From sequence record PQ488502.1: a stretch of 64,000 nucleotides of DNA, one strand, 5' to 3'. The stretch comes from Escherichia phage BUCT632. The notes under the pieces were generated by a model. It was not told the origin of the DNA. It saw only the letters and a list, made by a program, of their open reading frames with translations, and did not search any database. Both the position numbers and the translations under genes were made by a program. Numbering within the stretch: position 1 is the first letter of the stretch; each line of letters opens with the position of its first letter. Positions 8,290 through 38,640 of this stretch are shown piece after piece.

Positions 8290-9079
8290 TAAATTAGGGA
8301 ACAGCGAGCCGATTACGCTGAGTGCAGAATCCCAACCGGAGCGCATTGAATAGAGTCGGTGGGTTAGTTGTAAAACTAGTACACAGGGGGCGGCAATCCC
8401 GGTTAGTGGCTAGAACGTGTAAAATGAGGCGTCTGAAACCTCTCCCCTAAACTCTTCTCTAATTTATAAATAGTGGGGTGTGGAAATCACTTATGTAGTA
8501 ACACTGCCGTCCTAGTATAATTGGTATTATCAAGCCGTAACTGGTGGAAGATGTAGGTTCGAATCCTACGGTCGGTAAGAACTGGATAACTGATGCTTTT
8601 AACGTAAAAGCTTCCGAGGTTAGTTGCGCACTGCCTAAACCACGCGGTAGTTGGTTCCAGACTAACCAACCAGTCTGCTGAATAGTTTTATTACGATTTA
8701 ACTATGTCCAGGCTAAAGAAGAACTTTAGAAGGTATTCTAGGATAGTGAAGTTCTTTCTCCATATCGGAGTAGTTTTTCAAGCTATCCACAAAGTGGGAA
8801 ATGCTGACATGAGAGATGTCACTAATGGTGCACAATAGCACAGGTAATTCGCGATAACTCCTGTTGAGTAGCAGCAAAAGGCGGGAAGTCATGACCCCAA
8901 GCCTAACCGAGTCCTCAATATACCGCAGGATATAACCACTAAGTCACCCTGACTTAAACTGGAAAATAATAGACGTTACCGTATTTTGTCTTGAAATACT
9001 TAATGAGTGAGACTTATGACTCTCCCGGTATCGTCTGTATTTTTAAGAGTTTTTACGAGAGTTCTTAAAAATACTTAAA
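8290..9079 (+). ncRNA. Promoter-driven ORF-free region; candidate structured non-coding RNA(s) or degenerate tRNA
   Basis: no plus-strand ORF of 60 aa or more; T-arm-like hairpin GTAGG-TTCGAAT-CCTAC at 8553-8569 with acceptor-like pairing 8506-8512/8570-8576 but no anticodon arm; several local hairpins. Confidence 0.3.
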
Positions 9080-15635: not shown

Positions 15636-15738
15636 AAATTCTGTGTAGAGTTAAGTAAACCGGTAGCCAATCAGCTATCATTGCTGACATCGAATTCAGC
15701 CACAGATACCATTTTCATTAATAACTGAGGAAACAAGC

Positions 15739-16384: not shown

Positions 16385-16506
16385 TAAAATTTCAGTGCAG
16401 AACACGGAGCTAGCAATTCGGAAGTGCTGACTCATGATAAGCTGCCTATGTACTTGCGAAGCGGTCGTGTCCAAGACTCGGACTCTTGCACTGAAAACAA
16501 TCAAAC

Positions 16507-16627
16507 ATTCTAGCGTGGTTGATGGGGAAACCAGCTTGGCGAGGGCAGAAGCTCGTTCGATTCGAGTGAAAGAATGGTTCTCGTAAGTCCGCACAAGTGA
16601 TAACAGGTTCGAGTCCTGTCTAGAATG
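16507..16627 (+). tRNA. Oversized tRNA-like gene (121 nt) with about 55-nt insertion in the anticodon loop; no encoded CCA
   Basis: acceptor ATTCTAG/CTAGAAT, D-arm TGGT-TGATGGGGAA-ACCA, anticodon-stem-like pairing GCTTG(16534-16538)/CAAGT(16594-16598) enclosing 55 nt, T-arm ACAGG-TTCGAGT-CCTGT. Confidence 0.4.
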
Positions 16628-16635
16628 ACACTATA

Positions 16636-16763
16636 AAGTTTACTTATTATGTAGGTTCCGGTAGATCGGCGGGTCTATTCTGGCATTTAAGAGGGGTCTC
16701 GCAAACTTCTTTGTCAGCCGTGGGGTTGGTAGCCTCCAGGCGGCCTACACAATAAGTAAATTT
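16636..16763 (+). other. Long hairpin (about 20-bp closing stem enclosing about 88 nt); candidate small structured RNA or RNase III site
   Basis: AAGTTTACTTATTATGTAGG (16636-16655) pairs with CCTACACAATAAGTAAATTT (16744-16763). Confidence 0.45.
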
Positions 16764-16776
16764 ATTAAAAATTCAT

Positions 16777-16805
16777 TTGCTATTCTGCTTAATTCTCTGT
16801 ATAAT
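16777..16805 (+). promoter_or_regulatory. PN25-type sigma70 promoter
   Basis: TTGCTA 16777-16782, 17-nt spacer, TATAAT 16800-16805. Confidence 0.6.
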
Positions 16806-17000
16806 ATATTTTATAAAGTGAAGAGAAGGAAAGCAAAATGAAACACAAGATAGCTCAAGTTTTTATGGCATTATGGTGTATGCCAATAGCTGTAACAGCT
16901 TTTAATCTAGATACTTTTACTATAGAAGAAAAATGTATCGGATTAGTTAGCGGCTTTAGTATGCTTGGCTTATCTTTGTTGTGGTTGAAGAAATAATATT

Positions 17001-17078
17001 CTCCGTGTAGCTCAGTTTGGCCAGAGCGTTTCGTTTGGGGCGATAGGGTCGGGGGTTCAAATCCTCCCACGGAGACCA
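17001..17078 (+). tRNA. tRNA-Pro (anticodon UGG)
   Basis: acceptor CTCCGTG/CACGGAG, D-stem GCTC/GAGC, anticodon loop TTTGGGG, T-arm GGGGG-TTCAAAT-CCTCC, CCA. Confidence 0.65.
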
Positions 17079-17084
17079 AACAAT

Positions 17085-17162
17085 TGCGGGTTAGATCTCT
17101 GGTAGAGATCGCTAGTCTCATAAGCTAGAAAGAGGTAGGTTCGATTCCTGCACCCGCTTCCA
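17085..17162 (+). tRNA. tRNA with CAU anticodon (Met or Ile2)
   Basis: D-arm GATC-TCTGGTAGA-GATC, anticodon arm CTAGT-CTCATAA-GCTAG, T-arm GTAGG-TTCGATT-CCTGC, CCA. Confidence 0.65.
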
Positions 17163-17351
17163 TTTTAATAGGGGATTTCGAAATGAAAGTATTTCGATTA
17201 GTAGTAAGTGACAAACGTTTAGGTAAGAATACCTCAAAATCATTACTTGCTCATTATGGTAAAAATTGGGATGAAGTAATGGTAGAGTTTAATACTAATC
17301 ACCCTTACTTGAAAGTTCACTCTATTAAAGAAGTATACAATGGTTACTAAT

Positions 17352-17430
17352 AGATCGCTAGCTCAATAGGTTTAGTAGCATCCGACTTTTAATCGGAAGG
17401 TTCTGGGTTCGAGTCCCAGGCGATCTACCA
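17352..17430 (+). tRNA. tRNA-Lys (anticodon UUU)
   Basis: acceptor AGATCGC/GCGATCT, anticodon arm TCCGA-CTTTTAA-TCGGA, T-arm CTGGG-TTCGAGT-CCCAG, CCA. Confidence 0.8.
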
Positions 17431-17448
17431 ATTTCAAGAAAAACGCAG

Positions 17449-17477
17449 TTGCTTGATGCTTAATTTCTTGTTATAAT
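17449..17477 (+). promoter_or_regulatory. PN25-type sigma70 promoter ahead of structured RNA and tRNA-Ala
   Basis: TTGCTT 17449-17454, 17-nt spacer, TATAAT 17472-17477. Confidence 0.6.
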
Positions 17478-17516
17478 ATTTATATAAATTGATGAGGAGA
17501 AATCCTCATCATAGTT

Positions 17517-17701
17517 CACTAAGGTATTAGCTCGACCTAGGACTGGCTGCCAAAAAGCACGATCCCCATGATTCGGGAGAAGTTCTAGATTGGTCCACTA
17601 GATTCAGCGGCAACTGAATAGTGTATTGGGTTTGCGAGATGACGCAGTTCCTTCCGCTCGAAGCGAAGGTGCTGTAGTTACGCCGAGCTAATAGCCTTAG
17701 T
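17517..17701 (+). other. Structured ORF-free element closed by about 17-bp long-range stem (one bulge); candidate ncRNA or RNase III processing domain
   Basis: ACTAAGGTATTAGCTCG (17517-17534) pairs with CGAGCTAATAGCCTTAGT (17684-17701); internal hairpins. Confidence 0.4.
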
Positions 17702-17715
17702 AAACTAAAGAATTT

Positions 17716-17794
17716 GGGGAATGGGTCTGCATGGAGTGGACACCTCGCTTGCACCGAGGACATCAGAACGGTTCGATTCCGTTATTCTCCACCA
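17716..17794 (+). tRNA. tRNA-Ala (anticodon UGC)
   Basis: acceptor GGGGAAT/ATTCTCC, anticodon arm CCTCG-CTTGCAC-CGAGG, T-arm AACGG-TTCGATT-CCGTT, CCA. Confidence 0.75.
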
Positions 17795-17799
17795 AATAC

Positions 17800-17876
17800 G
17801 CGTGATTGATGGAATTGGCATACATACCGTCCTTAGAAGTCGGGTTTTGAGGGTTCGAATCCCTTGTCACGCACCA
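17800..17876 (+). tRNA. tRNA with UAG anticodon (Leu by anticodon) and short variable arm
   Basis: acceptor GCGTGAT/GTCACGC, anticodon arm CCGTC-CTTAGAA-GTCGG, T-arm GAGGG-TTCGAAT-CCCTT, A73, CCA. Confidence 0.55.
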
Positions 17877-17987
17877 AATTTGATGGTCAGAGTAAATTAA
17901 ACCTACTATCTCGGTTGAGCTGTTTTAATGGGTTCGAATCCCAGCGAGGCGTAACTGCCTGGTGTGATAGAGGCATCATCTTATTAT

Positions 17988-18078
17988 TGGAAGAGCAAAT
18001 CGAATTGGCGACGAAAACCGCTTGGAAAGTGGCTGACTGGTAAAACGGCTTGAGAGTTCAAATCTCTCCTCTTCCGCC
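17988..18078 (+). tRNA. tRNA-Ser (anticodon GGA), type II
   Basis: acceptor GGAAGAG/CTCTTCC, D-stem TCG/CGA, anticodon loop TTGGAAA, long variable arm, T-arm GAGAG-TTCAAAT-CTCTC, CCA. Confidence 0.6.
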
Positions 18079-18098
18079 AAACACTTGAGGTAATAATA

Positions 18099-18446
18099 AT
18101 GCTAGCAAAAGATAAAGCTCTAGAGTTTTTAGCATCTTTAGATGAAGATAAGATTATAGATGCTGCTGAAAAAGCTGGAATGCCAGATTTAACATATCTG
18201 GAACGTGCTATTATTGCTCGTGATAAACTACAGAAAGAGTTTGCTATTGCTCAGGAGGAGTTTTATACTCGCTATAACGCTCTTACTAAGCAAATTGAAA
18301 ATGAGTGTTCTCATACTTGGGGAGTAACAGAAAACCTAGGTAATGATCACGATGGCTGGTCTAAAGTAAAAATTACCTACTACCATCGTAGGACTTGTAA
18401 AATTTGTGGAAAAGTAGAAAACTTCACTAGTACGAGTGACTATTAG
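18099..18446 (+). CDS. Hypothetical protein with C-terminal zinc-ribbon-like Cys/His cluster
   Basis: 115-aa ORF; CSHTWG...HRRTCKICGKVE. Confidence 0.45.
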   Translation: MLAKDKALEFLASLDEDKIIDAAEKAGMPDLTYLERAIIARDKLQKEFAIAQEEFYTRYNALTKQIENECSHTWGVTENLGNDHDGWSKVKITYYHRRTCKICGKVENFTSTSDY

Positions 18447-18459
18447 TATAATAAATACT

Positions 18460-18549
18460 AGAAGATAGGACGTAGTGGTATGTAACTGGTCTTGAAAACC
18501 AGCCCGCTGTAGTGATACGGTGATGGTTCGACTCCATTATCTTCTGCCA
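18460..18549 (+). tRNA. tRNA-Ser (anticodon UGA), type II
   Basis: acceptor AGAAGAT/ATCTTCT, anticodon arm CTGGT-CTTGAAA-ACCAG, long variable arm, T-arm GATGG-TTCGACT-CCATT, CCA. Confidence 0.75.
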
Positions 18550-18569
18550 ATTAACTATAAGGAAATCTT

Positions 18570-18743
18570 ATGAGCAAAACAGTTACTGTAACAATGAAGG
18601 ATGGTAAAAAATTTAAAGCATGTCTTCATGAAACAGATAAGGGATGGATGGCTTATTTGCCACACCTAGATTCCACCGGGTACGGAATGACCCAACGTGA
18701 AGCTATTGTTGATGCTTTAAATGAGGCTTCTGCTGGTTTATAA
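18570..18743 (+). CDS. Hypothetical small protein
   Basis: 57-aa ORF with AAGGAAA RBS, below the ORF-track length cutoff. Confidence 0.3.
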   Translation: MSKTVTVTMKDGKKFKACLHETDKGWMAYLPHLDSTGYGMTQREAIVDALNEASAGL

Positions 18744-18750
18744 AAATTCT

Positions 18751-18882
18751 TGAAGTATGCCGGAATTGGTAGACGGGGCTGCCTAAAAGGTTTATAGAGA
18801 ACATCCACTCTCTACAACATACCTCATAAAGCGGCTGAGATAAATGGTCTATCTCGTGAAGGTTCAAGTCCTTCTGCTTCTT
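18751..18882 (+). tRNA. Oversized tRNA-like gene (132 nt, Leu-like D-arm, type II variable arm) with 48-nt insertion in anticodon loop; no encoded CCA
   Basis: acceptor TGAAGTA/TGCTTCT, D-region CCGGAATTGGTAGACGG, anticodon-stem GCTGC(18778-18782)/GCGGC(18831-18835) enclosing 48 nt with internal hairpin, variable-arm hairpin GAGATA/TATCTC, T-arm GAAGG-TTCAAGT-CCTTC. Confidence 0.4.
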
Positions 18883-18996
18883 GATACATCTATGGCTCAA
18901 AGTGTAACGGTGCTATTTGATGCTCTTAGTAAGACTTCCCCGACATGCGTTCGGGAGTAAGCTGCTAAGGCTAGAGTAGAAGAGTTTCTGAGAGCC

Positions 18997-19116
18997 GCCA
19001 CAATTGAAAATTCGTACTCGTCTTGAGCTGCGTGCAATAGGAGATAACTTGATTAGTATTCTAGAACATGCTAATTGAGGAAGGTTTCGCTAACCCTGCG
19101 AGTTTTCAATTGTGGC
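18997..19116 (+). other. Long-range 14-bp stem whose 3' arm overlaps the tRNA-His 5' end; candidate processing hairpin
   Basis: GCCACAATTGAAAA (18997-19010) pairs perfectly with TTTTCAATTGTGGC (19103-19116). Confidence 0.4.
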
Positions 19117-29181: not shown

Positions 29182-29210
29182 TTGACTTTTAGTCCTAGTT
29201 ATTATATAAT
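29182..29210 (+). promoter_or_regulatory. PN25-type sigma70 promoter
   Basis: TTGACT 29182-29187, 17-nt spacer, TATAAT 29205-29210. Confidence 0.6.
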
Positions 29211-29243
29211 ATATACATAAATTAGTTAAGAGAGGTATATATT

Positions 29244-29675
29244 ATGTCTGATCGTTTCTATACTCAAATGGCGGAACATTTTCGTATACCACATTACGAG
29301 CTAAACATTGCACTCCGTGATCATGACTCTCCTGAGTACAAAAAGCTCGAAAAGAAAGCGGAAAAATCTATTGATACAAAGGTAGGTGCATCTATGTCTA
29401 AGGGCAAAAAGTTAACTCGTCTTGATCTTAATAAAATTTTAACTGAACTTTTGGGTACTGATATTGAAGGTGCTAAATTACCGCTTCTTGTACTAGAGAC
29501 TATGATTAAAAAGGTCAAAAATAAAGAGTATAAAAAGGTAGAAGTCCCAGAAGGCAGATTAAAAGCTCCTTATCAGGAAGCATTAACCGAGTGTTTGGGT
29601 GTAAATCTTGATCTAAGCACTGCAACCGTAAAAACTATGAGAAACTTCTTAGAGGCCATTAATAACTATGAGTAA
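29244..29675 (+). CDS. Hypothetical protein
   Basis: 143-aa ORF downstream of promoter. Confidence 0.45.
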   Translation: MSDRFYTQMAEHFRIPHYELNIALRDHDSPEYKKLEKKAEKSIDTKVGASMSKGKKLTRLDLNKILTELLGTDIEGAKLPLLVLETMIKKVKNKEYKKVEVPEGRLKAPYQEALTECLGVNLDLSTATVKTMRNFLEAINNYE

Positions 29676-29958
29676 ATTAGTATATCTATTGAAAGGTTCC
29701 ACTTGCAATCCTTGCAAAATGTTTGAGCCAGTATTTGATAAAGTAGTCAATGACTATAATTTGGAAATCCATAAAGAGACTGATAATACAGAATTAATGC
29801 AGAAATTTGGTGTGCGCCAAGTTCCTGTAGTAGTTCTGGCGGATCGCTTACCTAATGGTCGAGTAGAAGCTAATCATATTCTGATTGGACGTCAGCTTCG
29901 TAAAGAAACTATGCACGAAGCTATTAAAAATTTCCTGGATGATAATCCAGAGGACTAA
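29668..29958 (+). CDS. Thioredoxin/glutaredoxin-like protein
   Basis: 96-aa ORF with CNPC active-site-like motif (STCNPCKMFEP). Confidence 0.5.
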   Translation: MSKLVYLLKGSTCNPCKMFEPVFDKVVNDYNLEIHKETDNTELMQKFGVRQVPVVVLADRLPNGRVEANHILIGRQLRKETMHEAIKNFLDDNPED

Positions 29959-29965
29959 TAAACAA

Positions 29966-29997
29966 AGCCTGATCTTAGCTGATCAGGCTTTTATTTT
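29966..29997 (+). terminator. Rho-independent terminator
   Basis: AGCCTGATC-TTAGCT-GATCAGGCT hairpin followed by TTTATTTT. Confidence 0.75.
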
Positions 29998-29999
29998 AC

Positions 30000-30028
30000 T
30001 TGCTTTTTGCTAAAAATTTTGGTATAAT
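30000..30028 (+). promoter_or_regulatory. PN25-type sigma70 promoter
   Basis: TTGCTT 30000-30005, 17-nt spacer, TATAAT 30023-30028. Confidence 0.6.
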
Positions 30029-30137
30029 ACTTATATAAATTGATGAGAGACATTAATATGATTATGTCACATATCTTTGTATGGATTTTAGTCATATTAA
30101 TGGCTTTCTTTGTCCTTCAAGAAATAGGAGTATTACG

Positions 30138-30515
30138 ATGAACTATGCATATCTTATTATTAATAATAATGTAGTTTGTGGTACTCGCGCCGTTGAGATG
30201 GGTATTACAGAAGAAAAGTATAAGTCACTTCCAGAAAAGGAACAACAATATTATGTTGAAGAAGCTGCTTGGGAATATGCTGATGTTTATCCCGAACAAC
30301 GTGAAGATCGCGTTACTATTGTTGTTTCTTTGGGGTTGGTTGGCTGTGATACCGAAGTTGATACAGACCTAGAGACTTTAGAAGAATGGGGAGAATTAGA
30401 CATTTTAGCTAAAAACTCTTTAATCCGTGAGGCTTTTTGGGAAGCAGTTGACTGCCATGTTGTCTTTGAGCCTAACGATGAGGAAGCTGAGAAGCATACT
30501 AATCACTGGAGATAA
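30138..30515 (+). CDS. Hypothetical acidic protein
   Basis: ORF from ATG 30138 with GGAG RBS. Confidence 0.4.
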   Translation: MNYAYLIINNNVVCGTRAVEMGITEEKYKSLPEKEQQYYVEEAAWEYADVYPEQREDRVTIVVSLGLVGCDTEVDTDLETLEEWGELDILAKNSLIREAFWEAVDCHVVFEPNDEEAEKHTNHWR

Positions 30516-30519
30516 TTAA

Positions 30520-30765
30520 ATGTTAGCAGAACAAGCAAAACGTTTAACCAGAATAAATAGAGCTGCACTTCTTAAGAGCAGAAAGAAATCATATAAGTAT
30601 GTTAAAAAGAGAATAGTTTCTTCTGTGGAGATTGGGGGTTCTTTTGTACAGTTTAATCGTGATGAAATTAGTTATGAAGCTATAAAAGCCCTCTATAAAG
30701 AGGGTTATACTCTCCAACTATCTAATGATTATGGCACAACTATTTTAACTGTTATTTGGGAATAA
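30520..30765 (+). CDS. Hypothetical small basic protein
   Basis: 81-aa ORF. Confidence 0.4.
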   Translation: MLAEQAKRLTRINRAALLKSRKKSYKYVKKRIVSSVEIGGSFVQFNRDEISYEAIKALYKEGYTLQLSNDYGTTILTVIWE

Positions 30766-30767
30766 TT

Positions 30768-31631
30768 ATGAAAAAAGAATTTAATGTACATAAAACTCTA
30801 GTAGTGCCTGATGACGCCAACTTATTTTTCGTTGGTGATATTCATGGATGCAATGATTTGCTAGAAGATGCGTTGAAATTAGCAGGGTATAATGGCAAAA
30901 AAGATTGCTTAGTATGTGTTGGTGACTTAATTGACCGAGGCACACAAAACCTACAAGTTTTAGCCAAATTCCTGTATAATCCACATTTTATCAGTGTCCG
31001 TGGTAATCATGACCAATTTATGATTGCAGGAGATTGGGCTAATTGGATGTATAACGGTGGTATGTGGGCTATGGATGAGCTGGATGCAGACACCATTAAA
31101 AATATTGCCGAAGATATGGCTGAAAAAATGCCAGTATTCCTAACTGTTAGACATCGTGGTAAGAAGTATGGTGTTGTTCACGGTGGCGTACCTTTTACGT
31201 ACAAAGAATGTGGTAATGAAGTAGAAACCCCAATATGGGATAATCTTATTGCACAAGTAGAAGCAGCTAAGGAAGACCCACATGACCATCCTGGATACCA
31301 TATTGAACCATATTTATGGGATCGAGATGTAATCCAAGAAATAGGCTTCTACTTGTCCAAAAATGGTGAAGAACACCCGTATTTCCAGCGTTATGCAGGA
31401 TTTAAAGAAAAATATATGGTAGAAGTGCCAGAGGTTAAAGGGGTAGATTTCGTATTTCACGGACATACTGGGGTTCCTTACCCACTTCTTTATAAAAACC
31501 GTGTTTATCTTGATACTGGCGGTGTTTTCAACGGGCAGTTGACGATTGCGCAAGTTAATGATGAAACGGGTAAAATCACCACATTTACTACACTCCGGGA
31601 AGATAGCTGTGGTGTACAGAGGGTTCTTTAA
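30768..31631 (+). CDS. Serine/threonine protein phosphatase (PPP-family metallophosphatase)
   Basis: motifs GDIHG, GDLIDRG, GNHD in canonical order. Confidence 0.75.
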   Translation: MKKEFNVHKTLVVPDDANLFFVGDIHGCNDLLEDALKLAGYNGKKDCLVCVGDLIDRGTQNLQVLAKFLYNPHFISVRGNHDQFMIAGDWANWMYNGGMWAMDELDADTIKNIAEDMAEKMPVFLTVRHRGKKYGVVHGGVPFTYKECGNEVETPIWDNLIAQVEAAKEDPHDHPGYHIEPYLWDRDVIQEIGFYLSKNGEEHPYFQRYAGFKEKYMVEVPEVKGVDFVFHGHTGVPYPLLYKNRVYLDTGGVFNGQLTIAQVNDETGKITTFTTLREDSCGVQRVL

Positions 31632-32152
31632 TGAAAGTTCGCTTTTGGAGTGATCTCCACTTGTGGCATGCAAATATTACTAAATTCAGACCAATCTTCT
31701 CTACTATGGAAGAGCATGACGAATTTATTATGGATACTATTACATCCGTGAAAGATAAGCGTACAGTATTCTATATTTTAGGAGACGCATTTGTATCTAG
31801 AAATGGTTTGGAGAAGTTCGAAAAACTCTTTGGCAATGTTAGAACTACGTTAGTTTTGGGAAACCACGACTTAGAACGAGAAGGATTATCTTTCAAAGAC
31901 TTAATAGGGATTGTAGATAATGTACAATCACTAGTTAAGTATAAAAACTTCTGGCTTTCCCATGCTCCAATACACCATGGGGAGCTGAGAGGTAAGAAGA
32001 ACTTACATGGGCATACTCACTTTGAGCTAATGGGGGATCCTCGTTATATTAACGTTTGTGTCGAGTATGCAAAATCACCAGTACGTCTGGAAGACATCAT
32101 GAGTGGTAAGTATACCTCACATGATAAAACTAGCTGGATGTTAAATGTCTGA
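31631..32152 (+). CDS. Calcineurin-like metallophosphoesterase
   Basis: 173 aa; SDLHLWH, GDAF, GNHDLE, HGHTHFE motifs. Confidence 0.6.
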   Translation: MKVRFWSDLHLWHANITKFRPIFSTMEEHDEFIMDTITSVKDKRTVFYILGDAFVSRNGLEKFEKLFGNVRTTLVLGNHDLEREGLSFKDLIGIVDNVQSLVKYKNFWLSHAPIHHGELRGKKNLHGHTHFELMGDPRYINVCVEYAKSPVRLEDIMSGKYTSHDKTSWMLNV

Positions 32153-32260
32153 GTATATAGCTGAGGCTATTATTAAACGAATCATACAAGCGATAGCAAT
32201 ACTTATAATCATTTATATTGCTATTGGCACAGGATTAGGCATTTTAATTAAAAGTTTTAT

Positions 32261-32289
32261 TTGCTAAAATGCTTAAGTTTCTGTATAAT
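32261..32289 (+). promoter_or_regulatory. PN25-type sigma70 promoter
   Basis: TTGCTA 32261-32266, 17-nt spacer, TATAAT 32284-32289. Confidence 0.6.
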
Positions 32290-32319
32290 TACTTTATAAA
32301 TTGATGAGAGGGAATCAAA

Positions 32320-32751
32320 ATGAACAAAGTTGATAAAGCTCTAGTTTTCGCAGCAGCAGATAAGTTTGAACAAGTTAAGGCAACTTTCCGAACCTTATTC
32401 CAGTCTTACGTTCAGGATAAGTCTAACCCTATCTCTGAACGTTTGATGGTCTGGGAATGTCATGCTTGCAATGCCCTATTAATTGCTGATTATCGTAGCG
32501 ATATAGATAAAGATCTGTGCGAAATTCTTATCCCTGAGGAGGCAGAACGTTATCAGTTAATCTCTTTCCAAGATTTGGCGGAGCATATCATTCCTGATGA
32601 TCTTTGGGATAAATACTATGGTGATCCTGAAGATGAAGGAATGACTCCAGAAGCCTGTATTGAGCTGATCTGCAAAGATCATCCTGAAATTGCAGAGAAA
32701 TTTGAAAAAGTTTTTGCTTCTGAGTTCTCCGGCGTTGTTAACGATTGGTAA
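32320..32751 (+). CDS. Hypothetical acidic protein
   Basis: 143-aa ORF downstream of promoter. Confidence 0.45.
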   Translation: MNKVDKALVFAAADKFEQVKATFRTLFQSYVQDKSNPISERLMVWECHACNALLIADYRSDIDKDLCEILIPEEAERYQLISFQDLAEHIIPDDLWDKYYGDPEDEGMTPEACIELICKDHPEIAEKFEKVFASEFSGVVNDW

Positions 32752-32768
32752 GTAATTAAAAAATTCAG

Positions 32769-32797
32769 TTGCTTTAAGCCTTAAAATTCTGTATAAT
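32769..32797 (+). promoter_or_regulatory. PN25-type sigma70 promoter
   Basis: TTGCTT 32769-32774, 17-nt spacer, TATAAT 32792-32797. Confidence 0.6.
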
Positions 32798-32829
32798 AAG
32801 TTCATAAATTAATGAGAGAGGAAATTCTA

Positions 32830-33081
32830 ATGGAAAACATGACTAAAAACGAAATGGCTAACGTTCTGGCAATTCTCCTCGACATGCAGGGTTTTGAGGG
32901 TCAGCTCATGAAGATGTCTATTCCAGCAATGAAAAAGATGTATGATTCTCTGAATAAGAATGCTATGGCATTCAACCTTGCAAAACAGGAAGCACGTTTT
33001 GCTAAAGAGCATCAGGCGACTGCCGAACGCCGTGCAGCATCTTTTGAGCGTGAAGTTAAGCAACTGAAAGGTAAGAAATAA
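32830..33081 (+). CDS. Hypothetical protein
   Basis: ORF from ATG 32830 downstream of promoter. Confidence 0.45.
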   Translation: MENMTKNEMANVLAILLDMQGFEGQLMKMSIPAMKKMYDSLNKNAMAFNLAKQEARFAKEHQATAERRAASFEREVKQLKGKK

Positions 33082-33247
33082 TAATGGAAAGAGTATCAAT
33101 TTCAATACTGTCATTCCTTATAGGAATACTAATATATAATATGGTTTCTCTTAACATACGCTTAACTGAAGTAGACAAGTCTCTTCATGAGCTAAACGTA
33201 GAGATTTGCAAAGTAACTCCAAATAACGAAAAATGTAGGGGTATTTA

Positions 33248-33529
33248 ATGTTAATTGAAATTCTCATTGGATTGCTAGTGCTTATGACACTAGCAGCGAT
33301 TGGTGGAGTTATTGGTATTGTAAGCATACGAAAAAATATGGAGAGTATGCTTATTACTAATAGTGGACTCCACTGTCGCTTAATAGAACAAGAACAAGAT
33401 ATTGAACTAGCACAAAGACGCTCAGATATTCTAAAAGAAAAACTAAACAATATTGAAGCAATAGCTGGGGATACAAAATTACCTAATAAAGTAATGCGTG
33501 CACAGATAATTACGGAGATTAAAAAATGA
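33248..33529 (+). CDS. Hypothetical membrane protein
   Basis: 93-aa ORF, N-terminal TM segment. Confidence 0.4.
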   Translation: MLIEILIGLLVLMTLAAIGGVIGIVSIRKNMESMLITNSGLHCRLIEQEQDIELAQRRSDILKEKLNNIEAIAGDTKLPNKVMRAQIITEIKK

Positions 33530-33771
33530 TGATGTTTATTCTAGCGTTTTATCTAATTGTGGTTGGTGTACTGGTTACTAAATACCACACATGGACGCCA
33601 AAGAATGTTGTTAAGGTAGCCTTATTTGTTATTCCAGTTCCACTTATTATCTTTTCTATGTTACTGGTGATGTTAGTTGGTAAAGTAACAAAAACCGATA
33701 TTAAACGTATTGCTGATGAATTGCAACAGTCTTGTGATATGGTAGAGGATATTCTTAAAGATGAAGCTTAA
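33526..33771 (+). CDS. Hypothetical membrane protein
   Basis: 81-aa ORF with two TM segments. Confidence 0.4.
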   Translation: MMMFILAFYLIVVGVLVTKYHTWTPKNVVKVALFVIPVPLIIFSMLLVMLVGKVTKTDIKRIADELQQSCDMVEDILKDEA

Positions 33772-34087
33772 TTTTAATGAATTAAATACCTTACATGAGA
33801 TACTACAGTTTGTGAATAATAATATTAGTATTCCAGATGATACATTAGAAGTTCTCACGTTAATCGAGAAAAAGGTAGGAATTGAGATTGAGGACTCTTG
33901 GAAACCACTTTCTGTATTAACACCACTTAATATGAAAGTGATAGTTAAAAATATTGATACTGGTGAAGAGTGTGAAATGATTCGTAAAGAACTAGCTGAT
34001 AGCTATTCACCAAAGTCTGTAGTAATGTACCATGATGATACCGCTAAGACTCTACAGACAGCTAATTACGTATGGCGTCTCCCATGA
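33761..34087 (+). CDS. Hypothetical protein
   Basis: 108-aa ORF. Confidence 0.45.
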   Translation: MKLNFNELNTLHEILQFVNNNISIPDDTLEVLTLIEKKVGIEIEDSWKPLSVLTPLNMKVIVKNIDTGEECEMIRKELADSYSPKSVVMYHDDTAKTLQTANYVWRLP

Positions 34088-34383
34088 TTGATTTAGTACC
34101 AATTACTGCGGGGCTAATAGCACTATTAGTGCTTGCAGTTTTTATTATTGTGGAGCAGGCCAAAGTAATAAGGAGACTTAAAAACAATGATAAAACGTCT
34201 TGTTTATCAGGCACCAAAGATTGTAACTGAGTATTTTGTATTACTTCCTCAGATTGTATTTCTAACAGCATTATTTAATATACTTTTTCGACATCTAGGA
34301 ATAACGGAAAATATCTTCTACACTTCTGGACTACTTCCTTTTATGTACGAAGGCATCATCGTGGCAATTAACGGAGTTCGTAA

Positions 34384-34845
34384 ATGACAGCACTACAACA
34401 ACTACAGAATTACTGGTTTGATAATCAATTTAACGATCTCTTTATCCAGTTATTTGTCGAAACGAACGGACGCTTCAACTACCGATTCTTTAATAAGTTT
34501 CATGAAACAAAATTCTCCCATACAGAAATTAATGCAGCGATCCAAGACCTAACTGGTTCTAAAGTAGTTCAATATCGTGAAGTAGACTTTACACCAGATT
34601 GTTTTGGGTTTGAATTGTTTAAGAAAGCATATAAATTTGGTAAGTTTGAAGATGCTCGTCAATGGGTTCATGATTTCTGGTACAACACTGATATTGTTCC
34701 TAGTCGTGTACTGATTCTTAACTGGATTGCTAAACAACATCCACCTAAAACTCAATCGTCCTTCTTACCAACTGACACAGGAAACCTCTACCATGACAGA
34801 AAAGAAAAATCCATTGCTGGAGCAGATGAAGGAATGGGAGAGTAA
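34384..34845 (+). CDS. Hypothetical protein
   Basis: 153-aa ORF. Confidence 0.45.
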   Translation: MTALQQLQNYWFDNQFNDLFIQLFVETNGRFNYRFFNKFHETKFSHTEINAAIQDLTGSKVVQYREVDFTPDCFGFELFKKAYKFGKFEDARQWVHDFWYNTDIVPSRVLILNWIAKQHPPKTQSSFLPTDTGNLYHDRKEKSIAGADEGMGE

Positions 34846-35164
34846 TATTGAATCTGGTCTAGTAGACGGTGAAGATATTGTTAACTCCATGTTAGAAGTA
34901 ACAATAGATAATATTAATCCTATTTTGGCGGGGGAAGCTTCTGATCTTATAGGACTTTCTAGTACTTTCGATTCTTTGGCTAAATTAGCTTTAGATGATG
35001 AAGAGATAACCAAAGAAGATCTCGCCTCAGCTATGAATATGGCTATTAACGCTTACATTGGCAAACGTACCGATGAACTCGACAAACAAATCAAAAAGCG
35101 TGATACAACGTTAAATCTTATGGAAACGGCCACTATGTTAAGAAGTGGTAAACAACTTCATTAA
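34793..35164 (+). CDS. Hypothetical acidic protein
   Basis: ORF from ATG 34793; followed by hairpin AGGCCAG...CTGGCCT at 35171-35196. Confidence 0.4.
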   Translation: MTEKKNPLLEQMKEWESNIESGLVDGEDIVNSMLEVTIDNINPILAGEASDLIGLSSTFDSLAKLALDDEEITKEDLASAMNMAINAYIGKRTDELDKQIKKRDTTLNLMETATMLRSGKQLH

Positions 35165-35218
35165 TTCTAGAGGCCAGGACTTAATTGTTCTGGCCTTTTG
35201 TGTTTCAAGGAATTTCAA

Positions 35219-35422
35219 ATGCAAGTATACGTCCTTACTAGAGATATAAATGAGTATAATCAGGATGGTGAATATTTTGTAAAGGTATTCGCTGAAAAGC
35301 CAAGTAAACAACAATTATTAGATGCTGGAGTACCAGAAGACCAGGCTAAGTGTATATTACAAGATAAAGAGTTTACTGGTGATGCTTACGAATGTTTCTA
35401 CCTTAGCTGTGAGAATATCTAA
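35219..35422 (+). CDS. Hypothetical small protein
   Basis: ORF from ATG 35219. Confidence 0.4.
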   Translation: MQVYVLTRDINEYNQDGEYFVKVFAEKPSKQQLLDAGVPEDQAKCILQDKEFTGDAYECFYLSCENI

Positions 35423-35423
35423 T

Positions 35424-35870
35424 ATGAGAGAAAAAGTAAATGAATTACTAATCGAGGAAGCTAACAACTTCCCAATAAATAGGTTTATCAAATCGGATGG
35501 ATCTATTAATAGAACCAAGATTAAGCAGCTACATCCCGACTTTCAGCAAGAAGCACTAAATCTTATATTTATCAAGAAAGCTGTTGCAGTTCATGGAGCT
35601 TTCTTTGGGTATGAGCGTGTAAATTACAAAACAATGCAACAGCAAGTCGAGATCTATTGTCCGGACCATGAAGGGTATTACTGGCAAACTGCTAGATCTC
35701 ATTTAGAAGGGCATGGTTGTCGACTGTGTGCACACAAGGTTGTGCAGCGTGTCACAGATTATGGAACCTACACCGTGCCAGCATGTTACCATAAATTTGT
35801 AATTGACGATAATCATATAGTTTGGTATAATAAGTTTTCAAAGTTAAGAATGGAGATAAATAGTGAGTAA
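35424..35870 (+). CDS. Hypothetical protein with Cys/His cluster
   Basis: ORF from ATG 35424; CPDHEGYYW...HGCRLCAHK. Confidence 0.4.
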   Translation: MREKVNELLIEEANNFPINRFIKSDGSINRTKIKQLHPDFQQEALNLIFIKKAVAVHGAFFGYERVNYKTMQQQVEIYCPDHEGYYWQTARSHLEGHGCRLCAHKVVQRVTDYGTYTVPACYHKFVIDDNHIVWYNKFSKLRMEINSE

Positions 35871-36153
35871 CTATATTATATGGTCAAATCCATTAGCAGC
35901 ACTTAGTAACAAACTATTTAAAACAACGTGGGGCTATAATGAAATAGACTTAAGCAGTCGCCCAATACCAAATACATGCTCACTAGTCCCAGATCTGTAT
36001 AAAGTAGTAATAAATAACGTAGAATATTTGGTTGACGAATTTGATAGAAGGCATATACTAGAGAGTATTTATGATGCCAATATATCAATGAATGAATTAA
36101 TAGATCATGCCCAAATGTGTGATAAAAGCTGGATGTTAATATGGAAATCATAG
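35863..36153 (+). CDS. Hypothetical protein
   Basis: 96-aa ORF. Confidence 0.4.
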   Translation: MSNYIIWSNPLAALSNKLFKTTWGYNEIDLSSRPIPNTCSLVPDLYKVVINNVEYLVDEFDRRHILESIYDANISMNELIDHAQMCDKSWMLIWKS

Positions 36154-36374
36154 CAATTATTTTAGTAGTTATGTTATTCATCGTAGTACTTGTATCTTTT
36201 GCTATTATGCGTAGAGCTAGAGAACTAGCAGAAGATCTAGTAAAATTACGTGGTGAGTTAGCTGCTCTTAAATTACAACGAGAGGCCTTAAAAGTATTTG
36301 TAGCTCAAGGTAGCGCAGCGCATACAGCAGAAGACTTCATCGTATATCTCAAACGTTACGTGGGAATCAAATAA
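36141..36374 (+). CDS. Hypothetical membrane protein
   Basis: 77-aa ORF with N-terminal TM segment. Confidence 0.4.
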   Translation: MEIIAIILVVMLFIVVLVSFAIMRRARELAEDLVKLRGELAALKLQREALKVFVAQGSAAHTAEDFIVYLKRYVGIK

Positions 36375-36559
36375 TGGAAACATTACTTCTTGTATTATTA
36401 GGAGGCTCACTCCTAATAATCCTGGGACTGATACTGATTTGCAGTCGCCTCAATACTAAGAATCTAGAGTTAACCTGTGAGAATGAAATTCTCAATAATG
36501 AACTCTTTCAATATAACATCGCAGCCCATAAACTGTTAGACAAACTGGAGAATAAATAA
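36374..36559 (+). CDS. Hypothetical small membrane protein
   Basis: 61-aa ORF, hydrophobic N-terminus. Confidence 0.35.
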   Translation: METLLLVLLGGSLLIILGLILICSRLNTKNLELTCENEILNNELFQYNIAAHKLLDKLENK

Positions 36560-37179
36560 TGACTTTTAATGCACAACAACCTATTCAAGTAGTACCGGAT
36601 CATGAACTGAACACATGGGATTATAGCTTTAAAGATTTAACTGCTACTGTACAATTTAAATCTATGAAGCTAACATTTGCACATAATGACCTTAGAGCAT
36701 GTAAAGATCTTGAGGATAAGCTCGAAGATGCTCGTAAGATTTTTGGCAAGGCTCGCATCCCAGCTGATAATCTAATTAACGCATTAATCGATGCAGGGTA
36801 CAAACTTGTGAAGACTGAGGTGAACCGCCCTAGTACTCCAGTGACTATTAGAGATCCGTGGCAGTCAGGGACAATCTCAATGCTGAATAACTCCGATAAA
36901 AGATTAATGTCGGATATGCACAATGTTCCTTGTGGGGGTGTGGTAAGTAGTACGCAGTCATATAAGTTTGTGGAAGATTACGGCCCTTCTGTACAGTTGA
37001 AACATACTCAAGAAGCTTTTGAATCTGATATGCGAAGCGTAGCACCTGCGGATGTTGGAGTTTCTAGGAGTTCTGTTTGTACTATTCATTTTAATAATCC
37101 TGGTCAACATGGAAGTTTAGAAGATGCTATTATGGAGGCGTTGGGAGCTGCCATTAATGAAGATAATAGGGGTAGCTAA
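36559..37179 (+). CDS. Hypothetical protein
   Basis: 206-aa ORF; followed by hairpin GAGCCTC-TACG-GAGGCTC. Confidence 0.5.
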   Translation: MTFNAQQPIQVVPDHELNTWDYSFKDLTATVQFKSMKLTFAHNDLRACKDLEDKLEDARKIFGKARIPADNLINALIDAGYKLVKTEVNRPSTPVTIRDPWQSGTISMLNNSDKRLMSDMHNVPCGGVVSSTQSYKFVEDYGPSVQLKHTQEAFESDMRSVAPADVGVSRSSVCTIHFNNPGQHGSLEDAIMEALGAAINEDNRGS

Positions 37180-37257
37180 TCCTCTAATACATGAGCCTCT
37201 ACGGAGGCTCTAAAATAAAAAGAAGGTCATCCAGACCTTAAAAATGAGAGATAAATA

Positions 37258-38562: not shown

Positions 38563-38640
38563 TGGGCGGTTCTCCTAAGTTTCTAGGAACATATACTAGG
38601 CGGTTTAATACAGGGCGGTTATTGGGAGGGCGGTTATTTC
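38563..38640. repeat. Four direct copies of GGGCGGTT spaced about 20-25 bp
   Basis: GTGGGCGGTT, TAGGCGGTT, AGGGCGGTT, AGGGCGGTT within 80 bp. Confidence 0.6.

What the first reader, a model, noticed from the sequence alone, without database searches (positions are those of the whole stretch)
16507..18882. Two oversized tRNA-like genes with 48-55 nt insertions in the anticodon loop
Elements at 16507-16627 (121 nt) and 18751-18882 (132 nt) have a well-paired acceptor stem, canonical D-arm and canonical T-arm (TTCGAGT / TTCAAGT loops), but the 5-bp anticodon stem encloses 55 or 48 nt instead of 7. Both lack an encoded CCA although the 26 flanking tRNAs all encode it. The insertions are far too short for group I introns and each contains its own hairpin. 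They could be tRNAs with small introns, tRNA-derived regulatory RNAs or decaying tRNA genes; none of these is established for this gene cluster.
Basis: seen in the sequence. Interest (0 to 1): 0.75.

Follow-up and report, generated by a model that had tools for sequence, protein, structure and literature searches.

The report
Phage T5 tRNA-like RNAs RNA2, RNA1
The two oversized tRNA look-alikes are real, conserved RNA genes of T5-like phages, already recorded in the T5 and BF23 GenBank entries as "tRNA-like stable RNAs of unknown function" (RNA2 and RNA1); they are neither intron-containing tRNAs nor decaying genes, and what they do is still unknown.

Summary
The window is a T5-like phage (99.8% to Escherichia phage Stokescottia). 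16507-16627 and 18751-18882 are cloverleaf RNAs whose 5-bp anticodon stem encloses 55 and 48 nt. They are not new: they are 97% and about 88% identical to T5 misc_RNA features RNA2 and RNA1, annotated "tRNA-like stable RNA with unknown functions" in NC_005859 and in BF23 record AJ604530.

Both occur once per genome in about 480-490 phage records (Tequintavirus, Epseptimavirus, Sugarlandvirus, Erwinia/Enterobacter phages). Covariation is strong: 14 of 22 and 11 of 35 pairs show compensatory changes, and 97-99% of cells are paired against 27-51% in slid controls. The inserts are at least as conserved as the tRNA bodies. The acceptor stems change completely between lineages.

Element 1 carries a second T-arm-like hairpin and an invariant CUCGUAAnUCCGCACA stretch. 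Element 2 is a tRNA-Leu-like type II body whose anticodon arm is lengthened into a rod capped by an invariant 8-nt loop.

The intron reading fails because the "spliced" anticodon and intron position differ between lineages. Decay is refuted.

Best reading: non-decoding tRNA-scaffold RNAs whose functional part is the inserted module, with an unknown target. T5 deletion mutants show both are dispensable in laboratory hosts.

The parts
16507..16627 (+). Element 1, the homologue of T5 RNA2 (T5s06): tRNA-like RNA with a 55-nt module in place of the anticodon loop. The T5-style annotation would span 16506-16630.
   Evidence: 96.8-98% identical to T5 RNA2. Covariance model R1 scores 155.6 bits at 16507-16630. 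14 of 22 cloverleaf pairs show compensatory changes.
16507..16513 (+). Element 1 acceptor stem, 5' strand (AUUCUAG). It pairs with 16620-16626 (CUAGAAU). G16627 is the discriminator, followed by ACA rather than CCA.
   Evidence: All 7 pairs covary: AUUCUAG/CUAGAAU in the T5 group, UACGGGG/UCCCGUA in Sugarland-like phages, AGACAAU/AUUGUCU in KEY.
16516..16533 (+). Element 1 D-arm: 5-bp stem (16516-16520 with 16529-16533) and 8-nt loop GAUGGGGA. Non-canonical, with C8 and no A14.
   Evidence: 4 of 5 pairs covary, including the fifth pair UA to GC. The minimum-free-energy fold gives the same arm.
16534..16598 (+). Element 1 anticodon-type stem (GCUUG 16534-16538 with CAAGU 16594-16598) enclosing the 55-nt module 16539-16593.
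   Evidence: 100% of cells paired. The pair UA changes to CG in both Sugarland-like phages and KEY. The competing minimum-free-energy helix and an alternative anticodon arm show no compensatory change and break where they vary.
16551..16567 (+). T-arm look-alike hairpin inside the element 1 module: stem GCUCG/CGAGU, loop UUCGAUU, closed by a G-C pair as in a real T-arm.
   Evidence: Two stem versions exist, GCUCG/CGAGU and UACGG/CCGUA. Both pair 5 of 5, and four pairs differ on both sides; the loop is the same apart from single-base variants (UUCAAUU, UUCGACU) in three genomes.
16580..16595 (+). The longest conserved block of element 1: CUCGUAAnUCCGCACA. It is mostly unpaired in the supported fold.
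   Evidence: Invariant columns in 20 distinct sequences. No significant complementary site elsewhere in the window.
16603..16619 (+). Element 1 canonical T-arm (ACAGG UUCGAGU CCUGU).
   Evidence: 99% of cells paired; 2 pairs with compensatory change.
18751..18882 (+). Element 2, the homologue of T5 RNA1 (T5s03): type II, tRNA-Leu-like RNA with a 48-nt extension of the anticodon arm. The T5-style annotation would span 18749-18893.
   Evidence: About 86-91% identical to T5 RNA1. Rfam tRNA model 25.0 bits over the whole model. Covariance model R2 scores 169.9 bits. 11 of 35 pairs show compensatory changes.
18751..18757 (+). Element 2 acceptor stem, 5' strand (UGAAGUA). It pairs with 18875-18881 (UGCUUCU), with U1:U72 unpaired. 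U18882 is the discriminator. No CCA follows.
   Evidence: 4 of 6 pairs covary. CCA is absent in all 20 homologues.
18760..18776 (+). Element 2 D-arm (CCG GAAUUGGUAGA CGG), of tRNA-Leu type.
   Evidence: Aligns with T5 tRNA-Leu(UAG) and E. coli tRNA-Leu D-arms. The best non-self hits of R2 are type II tRNAs, with an annotated tRNA-Leu(tag) highest.
18778..18835 (+). Element 2 extended anticodon arm, from the outside in:
- 5-bp stem GCUGC/GCGGC (18778-18782 with 18831-18835)
- A-rich internal loop
- AGGU/ACCU (18788-18791 with 18821-18824)
- internal loop
- 6-bp hairpin (18795-18800 with 18809-18814)
   Evidence: Compensatory changes are seen in the stem (GC to AU; GC to UA or AU), in AGG/CCU (AU to GC) and in three hairpin pairs. 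The minimum-free-energy fold is the same.
18801..18808 (+). Terminal 8-nt loop ACAUCCAC of the element 2 rod.
   Evidence: GAACAUCC(A/G)CUC is invariant but for one A/G position across all lineages.
18837..18855 (+). Element 2 long variable arm (GAGAUA AAUGGUC UAUCUC).
   Evidence: 100% of cells paired and the loop is invariant apart from one A-to-C change in phage S113. Rfam places it as an insertion in the variable region.
18858..18874 (+). Element 2 canonical T-arm (GAAGG UUCAAGU CCUUC).
   Evidence: 100% of cells paired.

Best explanation
Both loci are genes for non-decoding, tRNA-derived structured RNAs: T5 RNA2 and RNA1.

Shown:
- They are conserved single-copy genes of T5-like phages, read from the + strand inside the early tRNA operons.
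- The tRNA body (acceptor stem, D-arm, T-arm, a 5-bp anticodon-type stem and, in element 2, a long variable arm) is kept as a shape. Its helices change sequence freely.
- The module that replaces the anticodon loop is kept in sequence.

Inferred:
- The body serves as a scaffold. It lets host tRNA enzymes (RNase P, 3' trimming nucleases, the CCA-adding enzyme) cut the RNA out of the polycistronic transcript, and it makes the RNA stable.
- The working part is the inserted module. In element 1 this is a second T-loop hairpin plus the invariant CUCGUAAnUCCGCACA stretch. In element 2 it is a rod of about 15 bp with A-rich internal loops and the invariant ACAUCCAC loop. The module would bind a specific partner.
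- The partner is unknown. My preferred guess is a host or phage protein that recognises tRNA shape, with the RNA acting as a decoy or inhibitor. This fits an accessory, counter-defence type of role.
- They do not read codons, and they are probably not charged with a conserved amino acid.
For: Identity with annotated T5 and BF23 RNAs:
-.

Distribution:
- One copy per genome in about 480-490 phage records across several genera.

Structure under selection:
- Element 1: 98.6% of cells paired against 32-48% in slid controls; 14 of 22 pairs with compensatory change.
- Element 2: 97.3% against 41-51%; 11 of 35 pairs.
- G:U pairs are conserved on the + strand, which fixes the transcribed strand.

Sequence under selection in the insert rather than the acceptor stem:
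- Invariant columns in element 1: insert 54%, acceptor strands 0%.
- Invariant columns in element 2: insert 58%, acceptor strands 0-14%.
- The inner hairpin of element 1 keeps its T-loop sequence while its stem is fully exchanged.

No conserved charging identity:
- All seven acceptor pairs of element 1 differ between lineages, and the discriminator is G, U or A.
- Element 2 has U73 and U1:U72 in the T5 group. E. coli LeuRS needs A73 (established knowledge of LeuRS identity rules).

Body still tRNA-like enough for tRNA enzymes:
- ARAGORN accepts the element 1 body once the insert is removed.
- Rfam aligns element 2 over the whole tRNA model.
- CCA is encoded in three lineages of element 1.

Operon context:
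- Both lie among tRNAs and other annotated stable RNAs.

Dispensable in the laboratory:
- T5-123 (deletion 29191-32442) lacks RNA1 and T5Mos (deletion 30661-38625) lacks RNA2. Both are viable phages (PMC11464382; coordinates matched).
Against: - No partner, target or phenotype is known.
- No significant complementary site for either conserved loop was found in the window.
- I could not check directly that the RNAs accumulate. The word "stable" comes from the T5 GenBank annotation, and the BF23 record says only "tRNA-like RNA".
- Element 2 and the T5-group copies of element 1 lack CCA, so tRNA-like 3' maturation is assumed, not shown.
- The plasmid fragments of the T5-123 deletion that lay outside the tRNA-Lys fragment did not rescue T5-123 from PARIS (PMC11464382). 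I did not see their coordinates, but RNA1 (30501-30644) lies within that deleted interval and outside the rescuing fragment (31885-32870), so a decoy role against PARIS is unlikely for RNA1.
- The fold of the element 1 insert outside the T-like hairpin is not resolved by covariation.
Confidence: 0.6

Rival explanations
1. They are processing signals only. The tRNA-like fold recruits RNase P and 3' nucleases to cut the long early transcripts and release the neighbouring stable RNAs (RNAIV; RNAI and RNAIII), tRNAs and small mRNAs. The excised RNA itself has no role.
For: Both sit directly upstream of other annotated stable RNAs or tRNAs: RNA2 then RNAIV or tRNA-Gly, and RNA1 then RNAI, RNAIII and tRNA-His. 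The acceptor stems are free to vary, as expected if only the shape matters.
Against: A pure processing signal does not need a 48-55-nt module with invariant loops, yet the inserts are as conserved as the bodies, or more so. The neighbours differ between genera (Sugarland has a different gene order) while the elements themselves stay intact.
Confidence: 0.15
2. They are special-purpose chargeable tRNA-like RNAs. They receive CCA, are aminoacylated, and act on the ribosome or as amino-acid donors, in the manner of tmRNA or of tRNAs used outside translation.
For: Element 1 encodes NCCA in three lineages. Element 2 has a tRNA-Leu-type core, and LeuRS does not read the anticodon (established LeuRS identity rules). 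There is a short resemblance between the element 1 insert and pseudoknot 1 of E. coli tmRNA: UGCCGAGGG, CUCGUAA, CCGCA, in that order.
Against: The discriminator and all acceptor pairs of element 1 vary between lineages, and there is no G3:U70. Element 2 has U73, a U1:U72 mismatch and no CCA. The tmRNA resemblance is not above shuffled controls, and the pseudoknot's second stem has no counterpart. ARAGORN finds no tmRNA in the window.
Confidence: 0.1
3. They are tRNA genes with small introns in the anticodon loop, spliced into working tRNAs. Element 2 would give Phe-AAA or Leu-UAA.
For: ARAGORN in intron mode calls element 2 a 91-nt tRNA with a 41-nt intron. One GenBank record annotates it as tRNA-Phe(aaa) of 135 nt. 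In the T5, BF23 and KKP_3711 lineage, removing 40 nt leaves the loop CUUAAAA, which gives anticodon UAA and suits the Leu-like body.
Against: - The anticodon and intron position are not conserved: aaa with the intron at 35-37, against taa at 33-34.
- U33 is G in the T5 group on the 5' reading.
- A Leu-type body carrying anticodon AAA would misread Phe codons.
- The insert has invariant loops and covarying helices, the reverse of what is expected for an intron.
- 41-55 nt is far too short for a group I intron.
- The arm shows internal loops, not the two 3-nt bulges of a bulge-helix-bulge site.
- E. coli has no tRNA-splicing endonuclease (established knowledge).
- Element 1 gives no intron call in 17 of 20 sequences.
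Confidence: 0.05
4. They are decaying tRNA pseudogenes that picked up junk insertions.
For: No CCA in this window. Element 1 is invisible to Rfam and ARAGORN, and element 2 falls below the Rfam gathering score.
Against: Both are conserved in about 480-490 genomes across genera, with compensatory changes in every helix, including helices inside the inserts, and with invariant insert loops.
Confidence: 0.02

Closest known systems
T5 RNA2 (T5s06) and RNA1 (T5s03), and BF23 rna2 and rna1: misc_RNA features in NC_005859 and AJ604530, annotated "tRNA-like (stable) RNA with unknown functions"
   Same: They are the same genes. Identity is 97% for element 1 and about 88% for element 2. The neighbours match: RNAIV after RNA2, and RNAI, RNAIII and tRNA-His after RNA1. 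The cloverleaf is the same.
   Different: Only strain-level substitutions, several of them compensatory. The T5 annotation extends RNA1 by 2 nt at the 5' end and about 11 nt at the 3' end beyond the cloverleaf.
Canonical bacterial and phage tRNAs (Rfam RF00005), in particular type II tRNA-Leu
   Same: Acceptor stem, D-arm, T-arm with a UUCRAGU loop, a 5-bp anticodon stem, and for element 2 a Leu-type D-arm and a long variable arm.
   Different: There is no 7-nt anticodon loop; 48-55 nt of conserved structure take its place. Scores fall below the Rfam gathering score. There is no conserved discriminator or acceptor identity. Element 1 has C8 and a 5-bp D-stem. No CCA is encoded in this window.
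Phage T4 RNA species I and II, small stable RNAs of unknown function encoded in the T4 tRNA gene cluster (shown on the map in PMC2330249; other details from my own knowledge)
   Same: Small stable RNAs of unknown function, co-transcribed and co-processed with phage tRNAs, and dispensable in the laboratory.
   Different: No sequence comparison was made here. This is a parallel in kind, not a shown relationship.
Engineered tRNA scaffolds for expressing recombinant RNA in E. coli, in which the anticodon arm is replaced by the RNA of interest (from my own knowledge)
   Same: The design is the same: a tRNA body gives processing and stability, and the cargo sits in place of the anticodon loop.
   Different: Those are man-made. 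Here the arrangement is natural and conserved.
tmRNA (SsrA)
   Same: A tRNA-like acceptor and T-arm module joined to a non-tRNA domain. There is also a short ordered resemblance between the element 1 insert and pseudoknot 1.
   Different: No G3:U70, no coding segment and no pseudoknots. The resemblance is not significant, and ARAGORN's tmRNA search is negative.

Membership tests
T5-type tRNA-like RNAs RNA2 and RNA1 (GenBank misc_RNA features of T5 and BF23) | Sequence homology to the annotated T5 and BF23 features | tested here: met
   Element 1 is 96.8-98% identical to T5 RNA2 and element 2 is 86-91% identical to T5 RNA1. The covariance models score 150-170 bits on the T5 and BF23 features themselves.
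T5-type tRNA-like RNAs RNA2 and RNA1 (GenBank misc_RNA features of T5 and BF23) | Same position in the tRNA gene region | tested here: met
   Order in the window is tRNA-Asp, ORF, RNA2, RNAIV, promoter, small ORF, tRNA-Pro; and tRNA-Ser(UGA), small ORF, RNA1, RNAI, RNAIII, tRNA-His. T5 has the same order.
T5-type tRNA-like RNAs RNA2 and RNA1 (GenBank misc_RNA features of T5 and BF23) | Accumulates as a stable RNA in infected cells | not testable with these tools
   This rests on the wording of the T5 annotation. No expression data were available.
Canonical tRNA (Rfam RF00005) | Score at or above the curated gathering score (29 bits) | tested here: not met
   Element 2 scores 25.0 bits. Element 1 has no match at E up to 10.
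Canonical tRNA (Rfam RF00005) | Cloverleaf with acceptor, D, anticodon and T helices | tested here: met
   All four helices are supported by covariation in both elements.
Canonical tRNA (Rfam RF00005) | 7-nt anticodon loop with U33 and a conserved anticodon | tested here: not met
   The loops are 55 and 48 nt. No conserved anticodon can be read in the homologues.
Canonical tRNA (Rfam RF00005) | Conserved amino-acid identity elements (discriminator, acceptor pairs) | tested here: not met
   Element 1 has discriminator G, U or A, and all seven acceptor pairs vary. Element 2 has U73 with U1:U72 in the T5 group.
tRNA gene with a protein-spliced (bulge-helix-bulge) intron | The same mature anticodon loop after intron removal in all homologues | tested here: not met
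   ARAGORN gives Phe(aaa) or Leu(taa), with the intron at positions 33-37, depending on lineage.
tRNA gene with a protein-spliced (bulge-helix-bulge) intron | Two 3-nt bulges separated by a 4-bp helix at the exon-intron junctions | tested here: not met
   The supported fold has a 4-bp helix flanked by asymmetric internal loops (5 and 6 nt; 3 and 6 nt), not 3-nt bulges.
tRNA gene with a protein-spliced (bulge-helix-bulge) intron | A splicing endonuclease and a ligase available in phage or host | not tested
   I did not scan the phage proteome. That E. coli has no tRNA-splicing endonuclease is established knowledge.
Group I intron in a tRNA anticodon loop | A self-splicing core of paired regions, typically 200 nt or more | tested here: not met
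   The inserts are 41-55 nt. No Rfam intron family matched.
tmRNA | Detection as tmRNA, G3:U70, and a tag reading frame | tested here: not met
   ARAGORN finds no tmRNA. Position 3:70 is U-A, C-G or A-U. The resemblance to pseudoknot 1 is not above shuffles.

The most novel reading that the evidence does not exclude
The two RNAs are natural tRNA-scaffold decoys. The tRNA body gets them processed and stabilised like tRNAs, and the conserved module in place of the anticodon loop traps or blocks a host factor that recognises tRNA shape. That factor could be a tRNA-cleaving immune nuclease that measures from the elbow, or a translation or tRNA-maturation factor. This would be a counter-defence mode distinct from the nuclease-resistant phage tRNAs already described for T5.
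Probability: 0.25. Interest if true: 0.7.

Novelty: already known. Interest (0 to 1): 0.3.

Why it matters
As a discovery it does not matter much, because the loci are a rediscovery of T5 RNA2 and RNA1, annotated in GenBank for about twenty years.

It matters in three smaller ways:
1. These RNAs have no known function, and I found no mention of them in the recent T5 and phage-tRNA papers I searched.
2. They are mis-annotated or missed in most T5-like genomes. Records show "hypothetical protein", tRNA-Phe(aaa), tRNA-Arg(ccg) or nothing at these loci.
3. The comparative analysis here says where to look. Selection acts on the sequence of the inserted modules and only on the shape of the tRNA body.

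T5 tRNAs have recently been shown to neutralise tRNA-cleaving defences such as PARIS and retron Eco7 (PMC11464382, PMC11555353). That makes a test of these tRNA look-alikes against defence systems timely.

Tried and rejected
1. **tmRNA relationship.** The element 1 insert shares UGCCGAGGG, CUCGUAA and CCGCA, in order, with pseudoknot 1 of E. coli SsrA. I confirmed the SsrA sequence against 5,426 genomes. Local alignment and a chained-block statistic were no better than shuffles, and the second pseudoknot stem has no counterpart. Rejected as evidence.

2. **Alternative folds of the element 1 centre.** The minimum-free-energy helix (GCUUG with UAAGU, plus CGAGGGC with GUUCUCG) and an alternative anticodon arm (CAGCU/GGCAG, which underlies the tRNA-Arg(ccg) call in KKP_3711) both show no compensatory pairs and break where they vary. 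The inner part of the first helix may still form on top of the supported stem, but this is unproven.

3. **Antisense targets.** Complements of the invariant loops have no significant match elsewhere in the window. The host genome could not be searched with such short queries.

4. **Literature.** Full-text searches for T5 tRNA-like or stable RNAs found no paper on them. The Glukhov 2018 paper on the deletion mutants is not held.

5. **Wider distribution.** A scan of 241 million metagenome records for the most conserved 17 specified bases of element 1 returned 25 loci. Eleven are genuine: nine score 150-156 bits like the T5-type copies and two (113 and 103 bits) are Sugarland-like variants. The other fourteen are chance matches with no tRNA-like context. 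Element 2 was not found in the 14 kb fetched from Erwinia phage KEY, and I did not search the rest of that genome.

6. **Rfam.** No family other than tRNA matched either element.

Full report
**What the window is.** The 2.8 kb around the finding is 99.8% identical to Escherichia phage Stokescottia, and it matches 592 records of T5-like phages. ARAGORN finds 22 tRNA genes on the + strand between 9 and 21 kb, and Rfam adds three more tRNA-type hits. This is the early tRNA gene region of a Tequintavirus.

**Check of the observation.** Both elements exist at the stated coordinates.
- *Element 2.* The Rfam tRNA model aligns over its full length to exactly 18751-18882. The alignment has a 45-nt insertion in the anticodon loop and a long variable arm. 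The score is 25.0 bits, just under the 29-bit gathering score. ARAGORN in intron-permissive mode calls the same interval.
- *Element 1.* Rfam does not detect it even at E = 10, and ARAGORN misses it in either mode. When its 55-nt insert is replaced in silico by a 7-nt loop, ARAGORN accepts the body as a tRNA in four separate lineages.
- *Loop sizes and CCA.* The loop sizes of 55 and 48 nt are correct. Of the 25 flanking tRNA-type genes I checked, 24 encode CCA; the two elements are followed by ACA and GAU.

Three details need correcting.
1. The D-arm of element 1 is not canonical. It has a 5-bp stem, an 8-nt GAUGGGGA loop, C8, and no A14.
2. Element 2 has a conserved U1:U72 mismatch and is a type II, tRNA-Leu-like molecule with a long variable arm.
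3. Lack of CCA is not a family trait of element 1. Its homologues in INF11 and KKP_3711, in Sugarland-like phages and in Erwinia phage KEY end in GCCA, UCCA and ACCA.

**They are already annotated.** The T5 RefSeq record carries two matching misc_RNA features. One is "RNA2, tRNA-like stable RNA with unknown functions" (32959-33083). The other is "RNA1, tRNA-like stable RNA with unknown functions" (30501-30644). Element 1 is 97-98% identical to RNA2, and element 2 is 86-91% identical to RNA1. The BF23 tRNA-region record AJ604530 annotates the same features, and a Salmonella phage record does so for RNA2. The neighbours also match T5: RNAIV follows RNA2, and RNAI, RNAIII and tRNA-His follow RNA1.

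Most other T5-like records leave the loci blank or mis-annotate them:
- hypothetical proteins;
- a 135-nt tRNA-Phe(aaa) in JLBYU43;
- a 70-nt tRNA-Arg(ccg) covering the 5' part of element 1 in KKP_3711.

**Conservation and structure.** BLAST finds element 1 in 479 phage records and element 2 in 492. These cover Tequintavirus, Epseptimavirus, Sugarlandvirus and unclassified Markadamsvirinae of Erwinia, Pantoea and Enterobacter. I built covariance models from 18 and 20 distinct sequences. They find one copy per genome at 103-172 bits, while ordinary tRNAs reach at most 39 bits.

*Element 1.* In the cloverleaf, 98.6% of cells are paired, against 32-48% when partners are slid. Compensatory change is seen in 14 of 22 pairs. 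All seven acceptor pairs covary: AUUCUAG/CUAGAAU, UACGGGG/UCCCGUA and AGACAAU/AUUGUCU. The competing minimum-free-energy helix and an alternative anticodon arm show no compensatory change and break where they vary.

Inside the insert there is a hairpin that looks like a T-arm: a 5-bp stem closed by G-C, with loop UUCGAUU. It exists in two fully exchanged stem versions with essentially the same loop; three genomes carry a single-base loop variant.

*Element 2.* 97.3% of cells are paired, against 41-51% in slid controls. Compensatory change is seen in 11 of 35 pairs. These include the acceptor stem, the anticodon stem and the helices of the extension.

The extension turns the anticodon arm into a rod. 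From the outside in it has a 5-bp stem, an A-rich internal loop, AGGU/ACCU, a second internal loop, and a 6-bp hairpin with an 8-nt loop ACAUCCAC.

Conserved G:U pairs show that the + strand is the RNA strand.

**Where selection acts.**

| Region | Element 1, invariant columns | Element 2, invariant columns |
|---|---|---|
| Acceptor strands | 0% | 0% and 14% |
| D-arm | 26% | 72% |
| Insert | 54% | 58% |
| Variable arm | – | 73% |

- The longest conserved block of element 1 is CUCGUAAnUCCGCACA (16580-16595), which is invariant apart from the single variable position n.
- In element 2, the terminal loop and the variable-arm loop are each invariant apart from one position.
- So the body is selected for shape, and the inserted module is selected for sequence. 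That is the reverse of what is expected for an intron.

**Intron reading.** ARAGORN's intron call for element 2 is not stable across homologues. It gives Phe(aaa) with the intron at positions 35-37 in most lineages, and Leu(taa) with the intron at 33-34 in T5, BF23 and KKP_3711. The Leu(UAA) reading in the T5 group fits the Leu-like body. It suggests descent from a tRNA-Leu gene, but not a conserved spliced product. The other arguments against an intron are listed under the intron rival above. I put this reading at about 5%.

**Decay.** This is refuted by the comparative data above.

**Charging.** In element 1 the discriminator is G, U or A, and every acceptor pair changes between lineages. 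With no anticodon, no common identity set is left. Element 2 in the T5 group has U73 and U1:U72, whereas E. coli LeuRS requires A73 (established identity rules). A conserved aminoacylation therefore seems unlikely. This is inference, not measurement.

**tmRNA lead.** The element 1 insert shares three short blocks in order with pseudoknot 1 of E. coli SsrA. I recalled the SsrA sequence from memory and confirmed it at 100% identity in 5,426 of 5,426 genomes. Neither a local alignment nor a chained-block statistic beat shuffled controls. There is no G3:U70, no second pseudoknot stem and no tag frame. I dropped it.

**Genetic evidence from the literature.** Burman et al. (PMC11464382) used T5-123 (deletion 29191-32442) and T5Mos (deletion 30661-38625). 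Their coordinates agree with NC_005859, because their fragment 31885-32870 holds tRNA-Pro, fMet, Lys and Val as. T5-123 therefore lacks RNA1, and T5Mos lacks RNA2 but keeps RNA1. Both are viable, so each RNA is dispensable on laboratory E. coli. The plasmid fragments of the T5-123 deletion other than the tRNA-Lys fragment did not rescue T5-123 from PARIS. I did not see their exact boundaries, but RNA1 lies in that interval and outside the rescuing fragment. I found no paper in the searchable library that addresses the function of these RNAs.

**Most likely mechanism.**
- *Shown:* these are conserved, structured, single-copy RNA genes embedded in tRNA operons. They have a tRNA-shaped body and a sequence-conserved module in place of the anticodon loop.
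- *Inferred:* the body recruits the host tRNA maturation enzymes and makes the RNA stable. The module is the functional surface and binds a specific partner. The RNAs neither decode nor carry a conserved amino acid. This is the design used in engineered tRNA scaffolds (my own knowledge).
- *Speculation:* the partner is a factor that recognises tRNA shape, and the RNAs act as decoys. That would fit their accessory, dispensable nature and the known use of T5 tRNAs against tRNA-cleaving defences.

I give the general scaffold reading 0.6 and the specific decoy version about 0.25.

**Distribution outside T5-like phages.** I scanned metagenome contigs for the most conserved core of element 1. The scan gave 11 genuine elements: nine score like the T5-type copies and two are Sugarland-like variants, one of them new. 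The other 14 hits were chance matches. IMG/VR gave about 25 loci, nearly all from isolate genomes.

**Verdict.** The thing observed is already known as T5 RNA2 and RNA1. Their function remains open.

Noticed in passing
window 18894-19000 and 19005-19110: These are homologues of T5 RNAI and RNAIII ("stable RNA with unknown functions"), packed between element 2 and tRNA-His. RNAI begins GGCUC and ends GAGCC-GCCA, which is a tRNA-like acceptor end with encoded CCA. RNAIII is closed by a long terminal stem (CAAUUGAAAA...UUUUCAAUUG).
   Followed up: partly
window 16649-16751: Homologue of T5 RNAIV, 19 nt after element 1. It lies within a long imperfect hairpin of about 130 nt, just upstream of a strong promoter-like site (TTGCTA-17-TATAAT at 16777-16805, which is T5 P13a).
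   Followed up: partly
window 17525-17696: Homologue of T5 RNA2H (172 nt, stable RNA of unknown function, 96.5% identity). No Rfam family matches it.
   Followed up: no
window 8296-9079 (tRNA-like hit at 8506-8577): Homologue of BF23 RNAX, a 784-nt "stable RNA with unknown functions" directly upstream of tRNA-Arg(UCU). Inside it, Rfam finds a tRNA-like segment at 35.5 bits, above the gathering score. That segment is the only tRNA-type hit in the cluster without an encoded CCA, and ARAGORN does not call it.
   Followed up: no
window 15639-15711: Homologue of T5 RNA3 ("putative tRNA-like RNA", 98.6% identity), next to tRNA-Asn. Neither ARAGORN nor Rfam detects it.
   Followed up: no
window 17989-18079: A 91-nt type II tRNA-like gene with the loop UUGGAAA (anticodon GGA, Ser) and encoded CCA. 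ARAGORN and Rfam both miss it (E up to 1). It sits where T5 and BF23 annotate tRNA-Ser2(GGA), but it gave no BLAST match to the T5 copy.
   Followed up: partly
window 17877-17988: The stretch between tRNA-Leu(UAG) and the Ser(GGA)-like gene contains an isolated T-arm-like motif (GGGTTCGAATCCC). T5 carries the homing endonuclease gene hegC at this position, so the motif may be a remnant of a tRNA gene disrupted by endonuclease traffic.
   Followed up: no
window 17800-17876 compared with L001 5625-5709: tRNA-Leu(UAG) is 77 nt with a short variable region in this phage and in BF23, but 85 nt with a long variable arm in T5. The same tRNA gene therefore exists in type I-like and type II forms among close relatives.
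   Followed up: no
element 1 (16575-16579, 16589-16593) and element 2 (18843-18847, 18804-18808): Both RNAs display the short motifs AAUGG and UCC(G/A)C in regions predicted to be unpaired. In element 1 they lie in the insert. In element 2 they lie in the variable-arm loop and the terminal loop. This may be chance or may point to a shared partner.
   Followed up: no
L038 1549-1618; L040 407-541; Stokescottia record under 18735-18900: Public annotations of these loci disagree: tRNA-Arg(ccg), tRNA-Phe(aaa), "hypothetical protein", "HicB family protein", or nothing. These are annotation errors that a dedicated RNA family model would fix.
   Followed up: partly
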